Shown here one piece after another: positions 28,385 through 32,673 of a stretch of 64,000 nt of DNA (position 1 is the first letter of the stretch; every line of letters begins with the position of its first letter). The position numbers were made by a program, and so were the translations under genes. Location of the stretch: assembly GCA_944383245.1 (NCBI GenBank), contig CALWOU010000002.1, positions 70,417 to 134,416 on the forward strand. Direction: 5' to 3'. This stretch comes from an uncultured Clostridia bacterium. GTDB taxonomy: Bacteria; Bacillota; Clostridia; Christensenellales; UBA1242. The notes beneath the pieces are model-generated. The model did no database searches. It was not told where the DNA came from and worked only from the letters and a program-made list of their open reading frames with translations.

Positions 28385-28636
28385 AATAAAAAAATCCTAT
28401 TGAATTTCTTCAATAGGACGAATAGACTTCGTGGTACCACCCATGTTCACAATAACTTTTTGCAATAGTTATTGTCTCATTACATTTTCACAGTTTTGTC
28501 TGGCGCGGGTTCGCCCACGCAACTCAGGTGCTGAAATTCATATGGGCGCTGAACATAGTCACCTTCCAGCCGAGGGCAACTTCTCTATATGAAACGCACA
28601 CACTACTGCACACACCGTCATAGTTTTTATTAAGAT
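28385..28636 (-). promoter_or_regulatory. T-box leader (Phe specifier) with terminator
   Basis: All on the minus strand. UGAA-U-UUC-A specifier, with UUC at 28535-28533. T-box ATGGGTGGTACCACGAAG. Terminator TCCTATTGAA/TTCAATAGGA (28418-28395) followed by a T-run. Confidence 0.85.
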
Positions 28637-28641
28637 ATTTT

Positions 28642-28670
28642 ATTATATAACAACAATTTTAATTTGTCAA
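28642..28670 (-). promoter_or_regulatory. Consensus promoter of the pheST T-box leader
   Basis: Minus strand TTGACA (28670-28665), 17-nt spacer, TATAAT (28647-28642). Confidence 0.75.
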
Positions 28671-28722
28671 ACACTATTTTAAAATTAAAGTGCAATTTAT
28701 CGTGTTTTACTAAATGATAATA

Positions 28723-28765
28723 TAAATAGACTATGTTAAAATGAAAAACTAAATAGACTATGTTA
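28723..28765. repeat. 16-bp exact direct repeat (TAAATAGACTATGTTA x2, 27-bp period)
   Basis: Copies at 28723-28738 and 28750-28765, just upstream of the pheS promoter. Confidence 0.7.
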
Positions 28766-28816
28766 GAATAAAAACGCAATAAAAAAGCATAACCTAAGTT
28801 ACACTTTTAAAAAATA

Positions 28817-29065
28817 TTATATATTAATGTTTGCATCGTCTGACTTACCTGTTTTCACACTTTCTTCAAGTTGTTTTTTTATATAATCGGTTGCACTAAC
28901 ACAGTTATTACAACAACGGCAAAAGTACGCTGAGTGATAAGAATCATAATACATAATTGAATCGTCATTATCACAAAATATGTATTCAGGAATCTCATAT
29001 GTTTTTTGAACAATTTCAGTTAACTTACCAACTTTTTTTTGGTACTCAATTGTAATTCTTGGCAT
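28817..29065 (-). CDS. Small Cys-rich protein, paralogue A (82 aa)
   Basis: Start moved to ATG 29065 (MPRITIEY, RBS AAGGAG). The longer ORF start lies inside the promoter TTGACA (29119-29114)-N17-TAAACT (29096-29091). Cys pattern FC...FCRCCNNC. Confidence 0.55.
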   Translation of the reverse strand: MPRITIEYQKKVGKLTEIVQKTYEIPEYIFCDNDDSIMYYDSYHSAYFCRCCNNCVSATDYIKKQLEESVKTGKSDDANINI

Positions 29066-29166
29066 AGTTTTCTCCTTTTTATTTGTTTTGAGTTTATCAT
29101 AGAATATGATAGTTGTCAATAGATGGTGTTAAAAAAGCATAACCTAAGTTACACTTTTAAAAAATA

Positions 29167-29454
29167 TTATATATTAATGTTTGATAAATTAATGTTTGCA
29201 TCTATTAAATTTTCCACGCTTGCTCTAAGTTCTTTTTTAAGATAATCGCGGGCTGCAATATAGTTACCACAACAAGGGCAAATGTATGCTTTTTTATCTG
29301 AATTATATTCCATAACATTATAATGACCATCATCAGTTCTGCAATTAGTGTTATGGCAAAATATAGATTTAGGGATTTCATATACATCTTCAGTGATTTT
29401 ACACACACCGCCGTAATATTTTCTGTGTTCAATAGTGATTTTTGGCATAGTCAT
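29167..29454 (-). CDS. Small Cys-rich protein, paralogue B (95 aa)
   Basis: MTMPKITIEH with the same RBS and 5-prime UTR as paralogue A. Promoter TTGACA (29507-29502)-N17-TAATCT (29484-29479). Cys pattern FCHNTNC...ICPCC. Last 6 codons and 3-prime flank identical to paralogue A. Confidence 0.55.
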   Translation of the reverse strand: MTMPKITIEHRKYYGGVCKITEDVYEIPKSIFCHNTNCRTDDGHYNVMEYNSDKKAYICPCCGNYIAARDYLKKELRASVENLIDANINLSNINI

Positions 29455-29595
29455 AGTTTTCTCCTTTTGTTTGCGTCAAGATTACCATAAAAAATGATAG
29501 TTGTCAATAGGTAATATTAAAATAATAAAAAATAAAAAGACAAAACAAAATTAAAAATTCGAAAAGATATTTTTTATAAAGTTTTTAAATAATTT

Positions 29596-30186
29596 TTAAT
29601 TTTGATAATTATACTTACCTATTTGATTTTTTGAAAATTGTAATTGTTTACTATAAAGGCTTCTTAACTTATCAATTCCTAATTCATATTCAAGATGAAA
29701 ACCTAAATCATACATTTGTTGTTTTAAAATTTCAAATTGTTCATCTTCACTTAAACCTTTATTAAACAAATCTCTATCATACACATAATCCACAAGTCCT
29801 ATATCTTTAATTTCTTGCAATTGATGCCAGCAATTGCCTTTTTGATATATCCAATCTGTTTTTTCAGTGTCAAAGATAACATCAAATCCCGCTTTAAATA
29901 ATTTATCAAAATATGAAAATGCTGTTTTAAGGTCAACATTAATTTTTCCTTCTGGAAACGATTTATCTAATAGTTGTAAATTTTCAAAAAGAGAACAACC
30001 CCTGCATCTTATAAGGCTACGTTTAATTTCTTCTTCTGTTTTGTTTTCAAAATTTACATCTTTACCAAAATATATATCTCTTGTGTGCGCTGTTTTAAAA
30101 GTGTTAACAAATCCGTTTTCTAATAAAATTTTTTCTGCTTGTAACTTGTCTTCTTTGATTTTAAATCCTGCTTCAACTTCTATCAT
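29596..30186 (-). CDS. CYTH-like (CyaB / thiamine-triphosphatase fold) protein, divergent
   Basis: MIEVEAGFKI start resembles the ExExK strand of CYTH domains. RDIYF, LIRCR and a GF...K..W.Y region follow the CYTH pattern, but the acidic C-terminal motif is not evident. An alternative GTG start lies at 30201. Promoter TTGACA (30240-30235)-N17-TAAACT (30217-30212). Confidence 0.35.
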   Translation of the reverse strand: MIEVEAGFKIKEDKLQAEKILLENGFVNTFKTAHTRDIYFGKDVNFENKTEEEIKRSLIRCRGCSLFENLQLLDKSFPEGKINVDLKTAFSYFDKLFKAGFDVIFDTEKTDWIYQKGNCWHQLQEIKDIGLVDYVYDRDLFNKGLSEDEQFEILKQQMYDLGFHLEYELGIDKLRSLYSKQLQFSKNQIGKYNYQN

Positions 30187-30390
30187 ATAACCAAACACCA
30201 ACCTTTAAAAAAGTTTATCATAGAAGATAATGGTTGTCAAATGGTGGTGTTAAAAAAAAGCAAAACAAAATTAAAAATTCGAAAAAATTATTAAAAAGTC
30301 GTTAAAAATTGTTAAAAATCGCGATTTTTCGTGAATTTTTTTAATATTTTCAAAAATTTTTGTGTGATATATTGTTTAAGGGTATAAAAA

Positions 30391-32673
30391 ATGCAAAAAA
30401 CTAAAAAGATTAATTTAAAATTTATTTTAAAATATATGGCACTATTTTTTGTTAGTTTACTGCTTGCAAACGCGCGAGTGAGTGGAGTGAGCCCGTTTTT
30501 GTTTGCGTTTTTCTTTGCGGGGATTTTTGTTGGTATGGATGAAAAACTGCTTGCCGTGTTCACGCTTTCTGCGTCAATGCTAACAAATATGACTTTAAAT
30601 AATTTATATGTGTCAATAACCGTGGTGGCAGTAGGGCTTATAATGTTTTACGTATTCAAACTAATGAAGCGAAAGATAAACTTGATAACTGTTTTTTGTT
30701 GTTATATATTGTCACTTGTAACATATATTTATTATTTTCATTCCAATATAAAAGAACTTATAATCTACATAATTTTAGGACTAATTTGTTTGTATGTTTT
30801 TATAGTTGTTTTTCAGTGCATAGATTTAAAGAAAAATTGTTTTAAACTAACACTTGATGAAAGCATATGTTTTTTATTTTTTATAGCGGTTTTAGGGCTT
30901 GGGCTTGCACCCGTTTATATAATCAACTTTTCTATTTATAGACTTGTGTTGATGACCTTAATATTTTTAATGCTTGCAACTAATAATCCAACTCTAACTC
31001 TTGCAATAAGCATATCTTTTTCGCTAGGAGTTGCGCTAAATGATATGTCTCTATCGGTGGTGGCTGAATTTGCAATTTTAACACTTCTATCTAGTTTGTT
31101 TTCGCTTCCAAACAAATGGAAAATATCGCTTGTTGTGATTTTAACCGACGTGTTTATTCAATATTTCTTTTTGTATATGAGTGTTGATTTTATTTATGCT
31201 GTTTTGCCTATAATAGTTAGCGCCTTGATTTTCTTATGTATTCCTAAAAAAGTGCTAAATAGCATTGCCGATTTTGTTTACGTTAAAAAGAGCGAAATAA
31301 CCTCACGAAACCTAATAAATCAGTCACGAAAAAGCATTAGAAAACGTATGAGCGAACTTAGCAATGTGTTTTTAGATATGAAACAAATTCATCTAAATAT
31401 GGTTAAAAAAGAACTTACTAAGGACGAACTTATTGCTATGCTAGAGCGCGAAGTGATGAACAATTGTTGCAAGGATTGTTTGGAGAAAAATAGGTGTATG
31501 CGATCTCTAACAAGTATGAATAAATCTAATCTCGACGTGCTTATCGAACTCGCTATAACAAAAGGAAAAATTACCCTACTAGATATTCCAAATTCGCTTT
31601 CATCAAGGTGCTTAAAGGTTAATAATCTAATAACACTAATCAATCGACTGACAGATGAATACAGGCAATATAAGTCAATGCTTGCGGATGTTAATAACGT
31701 AAAAATTTTGCTAGCCGACCAAATGGGAGCAGTTAGCAGGTTGCTTCTTGATATGGGAGAGGAGATAGATTCTAATATAACGTTTGATCTCGCAGAAGAA
31801 AACAAGATAATTTCAAAACTTTTGTCAAACAACATTGAATGCAAAGAAGTATTATTGTATAACGAAAAAAATAACGACAAGTCTGTAATGGTTGTGGTTA
31901 AAGGCGGAGCGGAGATTTATCCAATTTTAGAAAAAGTGGTTGGCGAGTGTTTAAAAATAAAAATGCAGGTGGAAAAAGTTGAACCAATTGATGACGGAAT
32001 TTTTATTTCAGTAAATTTAAAAACAAAACCTAAATATGATTGTGTGTTTGGGCTTAGCAGTGTGAATAAATCGGGTAATGATGAATGTGGAGATTGCCAT
32101 AGCATTATTAGGTTAAATAAAAATAGATTTTTACTAGCACTTTGCGACGGAATGGGCAGTGGCAAGTCTGCACATATGATGAGTGCTATGACACTAGGAC
32201 TTATTGAAAATTTCTATAAAGCAGGATTTGATAACGACACGATTTTAGAGAGTGTAAACAAACTTCTTGCCATAAACAATCAAGAAAATTATTCAACTTT
32301 GGACGTGTGTTTAATAGACTTAGATAGAGAACTTGGCGATTTTATCAAGGTTGGCGCGCCGTTTGGGCTTATTAAACGAGAGGGTGGCGTTGAATTAATT
32401 GAAGGTGGCGCGCTTCCAATTGGTGCGTTAGATAATATTAGACCAAGTGTGAAGCAGTGCGCAATAACCACAAAGGATATTGTAATTTTAGCAACCGACG
32501 GAATAACCGACGCGTTCATAAGTCAAGAAAATATGATTGAGTATGTTAGTAAACTCGCAACCAATAATCCGCAAACCATTGCAGAAAGCATCTTAAACGA
32601 GGCGCTAAGGTTAAACGAAATGCAAGCGCGTGATGATATGACAGTGCTTGTTGCAAGAACTTATTTAAAATAA
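30391..32673 (+). CDS. spoIIE: Stage II sporulation protein E-like (polytopic membrane domain plus PP2C phosphatase)
   Basis: 760 aa. About 10 N-terminal TM segments. C-terminal PPM domain (ALCDGMGSGKSA ... ILATDGITD ... DDMTVLV). Confidence 0.85.
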   Translation: MQKTKKINLKFILKYMALFFVSLLLANARVSGVSPFLFAFFFAGIFVGMDEKLLAVFTLSASMLTNMTLNNLYVSITVVAVGLIMFYVFKLMKRKINLITVFCCYILSLVTYIYYFHSNIKELIIYIILGLICLYVFIVVFQCIDLKKNCFKLTLDESICFLFFIAVLGLGLAPVYIINFSIYRLVLMTLIFLMLATNNPTLTLAISISFSLGVALNDMSLSVVAEFAILTLLSSLFSLPNKWKISLVVILTDVFIQYFFLYMSVDFIYAVLPIIVSALIFLCIPKKVLNSIADFVYVKKSEITSRNLINQSRKSIRKRMSELSNVFLDMKQIHLNMVKKELTKDELIAMLEREVMNNCCKDCLEKNRCMRSLTSMNKSNLDVLIELAITKGKITLLDIPNSLSSRCLKVNNLITLINRLTDEYRQYKSMLADVNNVKILLADQMGAVSRLLLDMGEEIDSNITFDLAEENKIISKLLSNNIECKEVLLYNEKNNDKSVMVVVKGGAEIYPILEKVVGECLKIKMQVEKVEPIDDGIFISVNLKTKPKYDCVFGLSSVNKSGNDECGDCHSIIRLNKNRFLLALCDGMGSGKSAHMMSAMTLGLIENFYKAGFDNDTILESVNKLLAINNQENYSTLDVCLIDLDRELGDFIKVGAPFGLIKREGGVELIEGGALPIGALDNIRPSVKQCAITTKDIVILATDGITDAFISQENMIEYVSKLATNNPQTIAESILNEALRLNEMQARDDMTVLVARTYLK

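What the first reader, a model, noticed from the sequence alone, without database searches (positions are those of the whole stretch)
28781..30290. Three mosaic cassettes driven by copies of one promoter: two paralogous small Cys-rich proteins plus a CYTH-like protein
Seen in sequence: three consecutive minus-strand genes each have their own copy of almost the same promoter.
- A: ctaTTGACAactatcatattctatgaTAAACT (29119-29091).
- B: ctaTTGACAactatcattttttatggTAATCT (29507-29479).
- C: catTTGACAaccattatcttctatgaTAAACT (30240-30212).
A and B also share an identical 5-prime UTR and RBS (caaa..aaaaggagaaaactATG). B carries a 6-nt ACTATG duplication at the start codon. A and B encode 82/95-aa paralogues (MP(R/K)ITIE..YEIP..IFC...AY(F/I)C(R/P)CC...DY(I/L)KK(Q/E)L) that have diverged strongly at the protein level. 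In contrast, their last 6 codons plus the 3-prime flank are identical over 53 bp (28781-28833 = 29131-29183). B has a 15-nt internal duplication that adds LSNIN. The region upstream of promoter C (30241-30290) is a mosaic of the A-upstream segment (atggtg(gtg)ttaaaaaa..gca) and a 24-nt segment also found downstream of C (caaaacaaaattaaaaattcgaaaa, at about 29540 and about 30262).
Inference: this is a recombining, co-regulated cassette set inserted between the pheST promoter and spoIIE. Conserved cassette boundaries around diverged coding sequence suggest gene conversion or a dedicated recombination/regulatory role. I do not recognise the function of the Cys-rich proteins. The CYTH assignment of the 196/201-aa protein is weak.
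Basis: partly seen in the sequence, partly recalled or inferred. Interest (0 to 1): 0.62.

Follow-up and report, generated by a model that had tools for sequence, protein, structure and literature searches.

The report
Recombining array of small zinc-ribbon genes
A chicken-gut Clostridia bacterium carries a tandem array of genes for a small, uncharacterised zinc-ribbon protein, each with its own copy of one promoter and terminator; strains differ in gene number and content, most simply through ordinary homologous recombination between these shared flanks, and the neighbouring CYTH-fold enzyme gene has merely picked up a copy of the same promoter.

Summary
Three minus-strand genes (C 29596-30186, B 29167-29454, A 28817-29065) each sit behind a copy of one near-consensus sigma-A promoter with an extended -10. 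A and B also share a 17-nt RBS block and a 54-nt identical 3' end plus terminator.

A and B (46% identical) belong to an unnamed family of 65-100-aa proteins. It has 57 clusters at 50% identity, no Pfam, PDB or phage match, and both Cys-containing and Cys-less members.

In other assemblies of the same species (about Candidatus Onthoplasma faecipullorum) the array reads B-A-D, A'-D or B-E. Breakpoints lie in the shared promoter/RBS/terminator blocks. The genes are mosaic, and 47 of 120 site pairs among A alleles fail the four-gamete test. This points to unequal crossing-over and gene conversion, as in esaG/tipC arrays. I found no dedicated recombinase.

C has a CYTH/triphosphate-tunnel fold (Foldseek E 3e-8) with a variant ExExxxK motif. 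It lies next to the small genes only in this species, so the three genes are not a conserved module.

Gut metatranscriptome contigs cover A and B in most of 8 runs and C in only one.

The biochemical function of the small proteins remains unknown. Interest is modest.

The parts
30254..30288 (-). Upstream copy of the 35-nt segment that brackets the C gene (ttcgaatttttaattttgttttgc...). Its 3' part resembles the descending arm and T-tail of a small-gene terminator.
   Evidence: D4, 91% to 29534-29568
30212..30240 (-). Promoter copy in front of C: TTGACA, 17-nt spacer, TG-a-TAAACT. It matches promoter A at 26 of 29 positions.
   Evidence: D1
29596..30186 (-). Gene C, 196 aa, a CYTH/triphosphate-tunnel-fold protein. 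It has an N-terminal E3-x-E5-x-x-x-K9 and an invariant R60-x-R62. It has a weak, atypical Shine-Dalgarno sequence in this species.
29534..29568 (-). Downstream copy of the 35-nt segment, between the C stop codon and promoter B.
   Evidence: D4
29479..29507 (-). Promoter copy in front of B: TTGACA, 17-nt spacer, TG-g-TAATCT.
29452..29468 (-). 17-nt block (AAAAGGAGAAAACTATG: RBS plus start codon) identical to 29063-29079. It is the breakpoint in the L006/L009 recombinant (B promoter fused to an A-type CDS).
   Evidence: (D9)
29167..29454 (-). Gene B, 95 aa, a small zinc-ribbon-family paralogue (C-x4-C ... C-P-C-C). The ACTATG duplication gives it a 2-aa N-terminal extension.
29168..29197 (-). 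15-nt tandem duplication (CAAACATTAATTTAT / CAAACATTAATATAT) that lengthens the B tail. It is polymorphic between strains (90-aa versus 95-aa alleles).
   Evidence: (D6)
29130..29183 (-). 54-nt block comprising the last codons of B, the stop codon and a weak intrinsic terminator (11-bp A/U-rich stem, -9.3 kcal/mol, U6 tail). It is 100% identical to 28780-28833.
   Evidence: (D2)
29091..29119 (-). Promoter copy in front of A: TTGACA, 17-nt spacer, TG-a-TAAACT.
29063..29079 (-). The 17-nt RBS/start block of A, identical to that of B.
   Evidence: D9
28817..29065 (-). Gene A, 82 aa, a small zinc-ribbon-family paralogue in which the first knuckle has lost its second Cys. It is highly polymorphic and mosaic. 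Its first 27 or so codons are nearly identical to those of paralogue D in other strains.
28780..28833 (-). The second copy of the 54-nt 3' end/terminator block, at the end of A.
   Evidence: (D2)
28712..28765 (-). 27-bp tandem duplication between the A terminator and the pheS promoter. The window has two copies and L029 has at least the start of the second (its contig ends there). The D-terminated haplotypes have one.
   Evidence: (D5)
28411..28670 (-). Context and downstream boundary of the array: the pheS promoter (TTGACA-17-TATAAT, 28670-28642) and the T-box leader (28411-28630).

Best explanation
What it is. The locus is a tandem array of monocistronic genes for an uncharacterised family of small (about 65-100 aa), mildly acidic beta-hairpin + zinc-ribbon + C-terminal-helix proteins. 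The family is usually single-copy in Christensenellales-like gut Clostridia and has been amplified in this species.

How it is built. Each unit is self-contained. It has a near-consensus sigma-A promoter with an extended -10, a 17-nt RBS/start block, the CDS, and a weak intrinsic terminator.

How it changes. The non-coding blocks and the first and last codons are kept near-identical between units. I infer that they serve as substrates for ordinary RecA-type homologous recombination (unequal crossing-over and gene conversion, within the array and between strains). This would add, delete, replace and shuffle cassettes, giving B-A, B-E, B-A-D and A'-D arrays and mosaic alleles. The central ribbon region diverges under relaxed or diversifying selection.

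Gene C. The adjacent gene C is an unrelated, conserved CYTH/triphosphate-tunnel-fold enzyme. In this species only, it lies next to the array and has acquired a copy of the small-gene promoter region; a duplicated block of roughly 90 nt (35-nt segment plus promoter) brackets it.

Shown: the anatomy, paralogy, strain variation, mosaicism, in vivo transcription of A and B, and the fold of C.

Inferred: promoter activity, RecA dependence, the direction of promoter capture, and the cellular role of the small proteins. My guess for that role is constitutively expressed protein-binding modulators whose variable ribbon loop sets partner specificity.
For: - Repeats are real and non-random.
- The paralogues are A, B, D and E.
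- Independent assemblies from different samples give B-A-D (L005, L008, L010, L038), A'-D (L006, L009) and B-E (L029); the window has B-A.
- L006/L009 join the B promoter/UTR to an A-type CDS exactly at the shared RBS block. A and D agree at 58 of 60 nt in a stretch of the 5' CDS and at about 55% beyond it. L029 and the window share slot-2 flanks but carry different CDSs.
- Among 15 A alleles, 22 of 82 sites are polymorphic and 47 of 120 informative site pairs show all four gametes.
- dN/dS for A is 0.31-0.43, against 0.01-0.12 for pheS, pheT, tilS, spoIIE and C.
- An exhaustive profile search finds 57 cluster representatives with E <= 1e-3. There is no Pfam, PDB, PHROG, PADLOC, phage or plasmid match.
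- The AF2 model of B has pLDDT 90: a beta-hairpin, ribbon strands and a long helix.
- Of six family members examined in other species, five have their own promoter-like TTGACA or TATAAT-type motifs, four have a terminator hairpin within the sequence held (two contigs end at the stop), and all lie among housekeeping genes.
- C has a CYTH fold. 18 of 33 C-family members hit TIGR00318 weakly.
- C is unlinked to the small genes elsewhere and lacks this promoter in other species.
- RNA contigs cover A and B in most of 8 metatranscriptome runs, with some spanning the B-A junction.
Against: - All comparison loci are metagenome assemblies. Repeats of 30-70 nt can cause collapse or strain chimeras: L007 has an N gap at this spot, and Logan contigs break at the repeat edges. 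Some apparent recombinants could therefore be artefacts. Against this, the same architectures recur in independent samples and assemblers.
- No transcription start site or promoter activity was measured.
- RNA evidence comes from assembled contigs only and may include DNA carry-over.
- dN/dS stays below 1, so diversifying selection is not shown.
- The function of the small proteins is unknown, and zinc binding is untested. 10 of 42 family members have no Cys.
Confidence: 0.7

Rival explanations
1. The locus is an immunity-like or decoy array. On this view the small proteins neutralise polymorphic toxins or phage proteins, and the array is kept diverse by selection, as with the EsaG/TipC immunity arrays of type VII secretion systems.
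For: - The array consists of tandem, non-identical paralogues with conserved 5' and 3' recombination blocks, and copy number varies between strains.
- The central region is hypervariable and dN is raised.
- The pattern matches that described for esaG and tipC (PMC9484751).
Against: - No toxin, T7SS or secretion gene lies near the array; the neighbours are spoIIE, tilS, pheST and a CYTH-fold gene.
- PADLOC finds nothing.
- In other species family members are single-copy among housekeeping genes.
- dN/dS is below 1.
Confidence: 0.12
2. The locus is a co-regulated functional module. On this view the CYTH-fold enzyme C and the zinc-ribbon proteins work together, for example as enzyme plus regulators or inhibitors, and share an operator-bearing promoter.
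For: - The same promoter, including its spacer, precedes all three genes.
- The genes are adjacent in every assembly of this species.
- Promoter A has an imperfect palindrome in its spacer, TATCAT-n5-ATGATA (by eye).
Against: - C and the small genes are not linked in any other species examined.
- C homologues elsewhere have unrelated upstream regions.
- The palindrome is degenerate in promoters B, C and D.
- RNA contigs cover A and B in most of 8 runs but C in only 1.
- Three of six family members examined elsewhere carry similar extended -10 promoters (two with a full TTGACA -35) without C nearby.
Confidence: 0.1
3. The array is a simple recent tandem duplication with no ongoing exchange, and the flanks are alike only because the duplication is young.
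For: The array is in one orientation, head to tail, and is species-specific.
Against: - The coding sequence is about 63% identical at the nucleotide level (46% at the protein level), while the flanking 54 nt are 100% identical and the promoters 80-90% identical. A single divergence time cannot give both.
- The genes are mosaic and the arrays vary between strains.
Confidence: 0.05
4. The locus is a dedicated site-specific cassette system (integron-like or shufflon-like), with the conserved boundaries acting as recombination sites.
For: Each cassette end has a conserved boundary containing an imperfect hairpin.
Against: - No integrase or invertase gene lies in the roughly 6 kb called on each side, in any assembly.
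- All cassettes have the same orientation.
- Breakpoints occur at several different homology blocks (the RBS, within the CDS, the terminator) rather than at one core site.
- The hairpin followed by a U-tract reads as a terminator.
Confidence: 0.03

Closest known systems
esaG (DUF600) and tipC tandem immunity-gene arrays of Firmicutes (Garrett et al. 2022, PMC9484751)
   Same: - Both are strings of non-identical tandem paralogues.
- Both have conserved homology blocks at the 5' and 3' ends.
- In both, homologous recombination between the blocks accounts for gene gain, loss and chimeras between strains.
   Different: - Here the homology blocks are mostly non-coding (promoter, RBS, terminator), and each gene is its own transcription unit.
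- The protein family is unrelated and unnamed.
- No T7SS or toxin gene lies nearby.
- The arrays are short, with 2-3 genes.
CYTH / triphosphate tunnel metalloenzymes, e.g. SaTTM (7NS8-7NSF) and class IV adenylate cyclase CyaB (2FJT) (PMC8233210)
   Same: - The predicted fold of C matches these structures (Foldseek E 3e-8 to 1e-4, probability 1.0).
- C has N-terminal acidic residues E-x-E, an R-x-R strand and a D-x-Y motif.
- C gives a weak hit to TIGR00318.
   Different: - TM-scores are only 0.5-0.6.
- The motif is ExExxxK, not ExExK.
- There is no Pfam PF01928 hit.
- There is no HF motif, so C is not an AC-IV enzyme.
- The C-terminal ExE motif could not be placed.
- C has an extra C-terminal helical segment.
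Generic small zinc-ribbon proteins (CxxC...CxxC rubredoxin-like knuckles)
   Same: - Paralogue D has CxxC-x11-CxxC.
- Paralogue B has Cx4C...CxCC.
- The model shows short paired strands of the ribbon type.
   Different: - The N-terminal MPRITIE beta-hairpin and the long C-terminal helix have no structural match in PDB or BFVD.
- Many family members lack all Cys.
- No Pfam zinc-ribbon model is hit consistently.

Membership tests
CYTH / TTM superfamily (gene C) | Eight-stranded beta-barrel tunnel (TTM) fold | tested here: met
   The AF2 model has pLDDT 87.7. The top 16 Foldseek PDB hits are all TTM, CyaB or ThTPase structures, with E 3e-8 to 1.5e-4 and TM 0.41-0.62. The match is at fold level only, and barrel closure was not inspected.
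CYTH / TTM superfamily (gene C) | N-terminal ExExK hallmark motif (PMC8233210) | tested here: not met
   The sequence is M-I-E3-V-E5-A-G7-F-K9. E5, G7 and K9 are invariant and E3 nearly so in 33 homologues. The Lys is displaced by two residues (ExExxxK).
CYTH / TTM superfamily (gene C) | Match to the family profile (Pfam PF01928 or NCBIfam TIGR00318) above its cut-off | tested here: not met
   No PF01928 hit at E <= 1 for any of 33 members. TIGR00318 is hit by 18 of 33 members, best E 5e-5; the window's protein scores 19 bits against a cut-off of 58.
CYTH / TTM superfamily (gene C) | Basic RxR strand and C-terminal acidic ExE metal-binding motif | tested here: inconclusive
   R60-x-R62 and D37-x-Y39 are invariant. 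The ExE equivalent could not be placed without a residue-level structural alignment; the candidates are D106-x-E108 and D133.
Class IV adenylate cyclase (CyaB) | HF motif four residues before ExExK (HFxxxxExExK) | tested here: not met
   The protein starts two residues before the first Glu, so there is no room for HFxxxx. The criterion is from PMC8233210.
Zinc ribbon (genes A, B and paralogues) | Two Cys knuckles (4 ligands) on paired beta-hairpins | tested here: inconclusive
   D has CNKC...CLYC and B has CHNTNC...CPCC. A has only one Cys in the first knuckle. 10 of 42 family members have no Cys. The model shows ribbon-like strands. Metal binding is not testable here.
Tandem paralogue arrays evolving by homologous recombination (esaG/tipC type) | Non-identical tandem paralogues sharing conserved sequence blocks at both ends | tested here: met
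Tandem paralogue arrays evolving by homologous recombination (esaG/tipC type) | Strain-to-strain gain, loss or chimeras with breakpoints in the conserved blocks | tested here: met
   The arrays are B-A, B-E, B-A-D and A'-D. The L006 chimera joins at the RBS block. A and D share their 5' CDS. The four-gamete test fails for 47 of 120 site pairs. Caveat: all these loci are metagenome assemblies.
Tandem paralogue arrays evolving by homologous recombination (esaG/tipC type) | Immunity function linked to a T7SS or polymorphic toxin locus | tested here: not met
   The neighbours are spoIIE, tilS, pheST, a diacylglycerol-kinase-like gene and an LRR protein. There are no T7SS or toxin genes. PADLOC finds nothing.
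Integron/shufflon-type site-specific cassette systems | Adjacent tyrosine or serine recombinase and a defined core site at each cassette boundary | tested here: not met
   No recombinase lies among the called neighbours. The cassettes have one orientation, and breakpoints occur at several different blocks.
Sigma-A (sigma-70-type) extended -10 promoter | TTGACA, 17-nt spacer, TGnTAtaaT, and transcription starting downstream | tested here: inconclusive
   The sequence criteria are met at all three sites. RNA contigs cover A and B. No transcription start site was mapped.

The most novel reading that the evidence does not exclude
The small MPRITIE/zinc-ribbon proteins may be a new class of abundantly expressed specificity modules, such as immunity-like or anti-phage/anti-toxin decoys, or modulators of a translation or tRNA-linked partner. 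The neighbours of family members in other species prompt the second idea: rpsT, smpB-ssrA, a ybaK-like deacylase, pheST and tilS. On this reading the promoter/terminator-flanked array is a selected diversity-generating device that swaps the variable ribbon loop between strains.
Probability: 0.12. Interest if true: 0.6.

Novelty: new member of a known kind. Interest (0 to 1): 0.36.

Why it matters
The finding adds a clean example of concerted evolution of regulatory flanks around diverging coding sequence, in an uncultured gut Clostridia lineage. It shows that whole transcription units (promoter, RBS, CDS, terminator) can act as exchangeable cassettes without any dedicated recombinase.

It also flags an unnamed, transcribed family of small proteins (57 clusters at 50% identity, with Cys-containing and Cys-less forms) and a divergent CYTH-fold family (184 homologues). 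Both are candidates for characterisation.

For annotation, it warns that identical promoters on neighbouring genes need not mean a functional module.

Tried and rejected
Searches that found nothing:
- Pfam, PHROGs, NCBIfam and PADLOC scans of A and B gave nothing significant.
- A PDB sequence-profile search for both families gave nothing significant.
- Foldseek of the B model against PDB and BFVD gave no hit below E 0.1.
- tblastn against the phage and plasmid collections gave no match.
- DNA pattern scans of viral contigs and JGI metagenome contigs gave no match.

Steps that did not work:
- Laying DNA-run contigs on the locus to detect structural variants was uninformative, because Logan contigs break at the repeat edges.

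Ideas considered and rejected:
- L007, which seemed to have one cassette, in fact contains an N gap.
- The apparently shorter spoIIE in some loci is a gene-calling difference. The ORF is intact in L005-L008.
- Ribosomal-protein-like C+/C- paralogues: the family is acidic, with median pI 5.6.
- A 4-oxalocrotonate-tautomerase-like N-terminal Pro: Pro2 is not invariant and the fold differs.
- Fin/Gin-type sporulation anti-sigma factors: none of the 42 family members hit the Pfam models for them (Fin, Gin).
Full report
**Anatomy**

On the minus strand, spoIIE (30391-32673, plus strand, divergent) is followed by three genes: C (29596-30186, 196 aa from the ATG that homologues use), B (29167-29454, 95 aa) and A (28817-29065, 82 aa). 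Then come the pheS promoter, a T-box leader (28411-28630) and pheST.

Each of the three genes is preceded by TTGACA, a 17-nt spacer and TG-n-TAAACT/TAATCT. A degenerate 29-mer finds only these three sites in the 64-kb window, against 0 expected by chance.

A and B share four further features:
- a 17-nt RBS/start block;
- a 54-nt block that is 100% identical, covering the last codons, the stop codon and an 11-bp A/U-rich hairpin with a U6 tail (-9.3 kcal/mol);
- in B, an ACTATG duplication at the start codon;
- in B, a 15-nt duplication in the tail.

A 35-nt segment brackets C at 91% identity.

**The small proteins**

A and B are 46% identical. Word-indexed searches found only near-identical alleles. 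An exhaustive profile search found 57 cluster representatives with E <= 1e-3, nearly all 65-100 aa.

The family consensus is MPRITIE...YEIP...(C)...YDSYH.AY.C..C...DY.K..L. Some members have four Cys, others three, and 10 of 42 have none. One protein of 244 aa carries three tandem Cys-less domains. Median pI is 5.6.

AF2 models B with pLDDT 90, as an N-terminal beta-hairpin, short ribbon strands and a long C-terminal helix. Nothing in PDB or BFVD resembles it. No Pfam, PHROG, PADLOC, phage or plasmid match exists. This is a real but unnamed family.

**Strain comparison**

Contigs from other samples carry C at 96-99% nucleotide identity, from a chicken-gut organism. One B allele is annotated as Candidatus Onthoplasma faecipullorum, order Christensenellales. 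These contigs show different arrays in the same spoIIE-pheS interval:
- B-A-D in L005, L008, L010 and L038;
- A'-D in L006 and L009;
- B-E in L029;
- B-A in the window.

D (80 aa) has a canonical CxxC...CxxC. E (98 aa) is B-like.

The breakpoints lie in the shared blocks:
- L006/L009 carry the B promoter and UTR joined at the RBS block to an A-type CDS.
- A and D agree at 58 of 60 nt in a stretch of the 5' CDS, spanning about the first 27 codons, and at about 55% thereafter.
- L029 and the window have the same slot-2 promoter and the same terminator and downstream flank, but different coding sequences.

Among 15 A alleles, 22 of 82 residues vary in reassorting blocks, and 47 of 120 informative site pairs show all four gametes. 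dN/dS for A is 0.31-0.43, against 0.01-0.12 for its neighbours.

This is the signature of unequal crossing-over and gene conversion between tandem paralogues through conserved end blocks, as described for esaG and tipC (PMC9484751). No recombinase gene lies nearby, and the cassettes are all in one orientation.

There is a caveat. All these loci are metagenome assemblies, and repeats of this size cause collapse and chimeras. L007 has an N gap here, and Logan contigs break at the repeat edges. Even so, the same architectures recur across independent samples and assemblers.

**Gene C**

C has 184 homologues in uncultured gut Clostridia. AF2 gives pLDDT 87.7. The best Foldseek matches are triphosphate tunnel metalloenzymes, class IV adenylate cyclases and ThTPases (E 3e-8 onward, TM 0.5-0.6). 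18 of 33 members hit TIGR00318 weakly, and none hits Pfam CYTH.

The hallmark ExExK motif is replaced by an invariant ExExxxK. RxR and DxY are conserved (criteria from PMC8233210). There is no HF motif, so C is not a CyaB-type cyclase. C is thus a divergent CYTH-fold protein, under purifying selection.

**Is this a module?**

In 16 C loci from other species, no small-family gene lies within the flanks. In 6 small-family loci from other species, there is no C.

C homologues elsewhere have unrelated upstream regions and strong Shine-Dalgarno sequences. Here C has the borrowed promoter and a weak Shine-Dalgarno sequence.

Family members in other species are monocistronic. Five of six have their own promoter-like motifs (for example TATTGACAACTA...CATGATATAAT in L034), and four have a terminator hairpin within the sequence held. 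They sit next to rpsT, smpB-ssrA, a ybaK-like gene, an acetyltransferase or iPGM. The promoter type therefore belongs to the small-gene family, and C most likely captured a copy. The 35-nt-plus-promoter duplication around C fits this reading.

In eight chicken-gut metatranscriptome runs from five studies, assembled RNA contigs cover A and B in most runs. Depth is at or above that of pheS in several runs, and some contigs span the B-A junction. C is touched in only one run. This is weak evidence, but it argues against tight co-expression.

**Verdict**

The sequence observation is confirmed. The 'recombining cassettes / gene conversion' reading is supported, and so is the CYTH-fold guess. A dedicated recombination system and a three-gene functional module are not supported.

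The mechanism is ordinary homologous recombination acting on duplicated transcription units. This is a known kind of locus, involving a new and uncharacterised small-protein family whose function remains open.

Noticed in passing
window 28411-28630 (-): The T-box leader upstream of pheS scores 80.9 bits (E 2e-17), below Rfam's gathering score of 93. The default threshold search therefore missed it.
   Followed up: partly
window 28712-28765: A 27-bp tandem duplication (aaatga(t/a)aa.a.taaatagactatgtta) lies between the array and the pheS promoter. The window has two copies and L029 has at least the start of the second (its contig ends there). The D-terminated haplotypes (L005, L006) have one copy, and L038 has a different sequence at this position.
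   Followed up: partly
window 29072 and 29461-29463: Metatranscriptome contigs from several runs end at equivalent positions inside the RBS block of A and of B. In run X28 the end is followed directly by Illumina adapter sequence. These could be RNA 5' ends or processing sites, or just k-mer breaks at the 17-nt repeat.
   Followed up: no
P0159 (L037 1024-1758): A 244-aa protein from another metagenome consists of three tandem Cys-less copies of the small-protein domain. It lies downstream of an Acetyltransf_3 gene.
   Followed up: no
L030, L031/L032, L034-L036, window: Small-family genes repeatedly neighbour translation or tRNA-related genes: rpsT; between smpB and the tmRNA gene; upstream of a YbaK/tRNA_edit gene; and upstream of T-box-pheST, near tilS. 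This is a post-hoc pattern from six contexts and was not tested statistically.
   Followed up: partly
window 30187-30211: In this species C has a weak, atypical ribosome-binding region (aaaggttggtgtttggttatATG). Homologues in other species have GGAG-type Shine-Dalgarno sequences. An in-frame upstream TTG would give 201 aa, but homologues do not support it.
   Followed up: partly
L029 1323-1610: The B allele in L029 has Ser in place of the first ribbon Cys (IFSHN versus IFCHN), so Cys loss also occurs within the species. P0122 is a frameshifted B variant.
   Followed up: no
L019 about 2328: Upstream of the C homologue in L019 lies an 11-codon fragment that begins like C (M..IEVE.GF) behind a similar leader. 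It looks like a partial duplication of the gene's 5' end.
   Followed up: no
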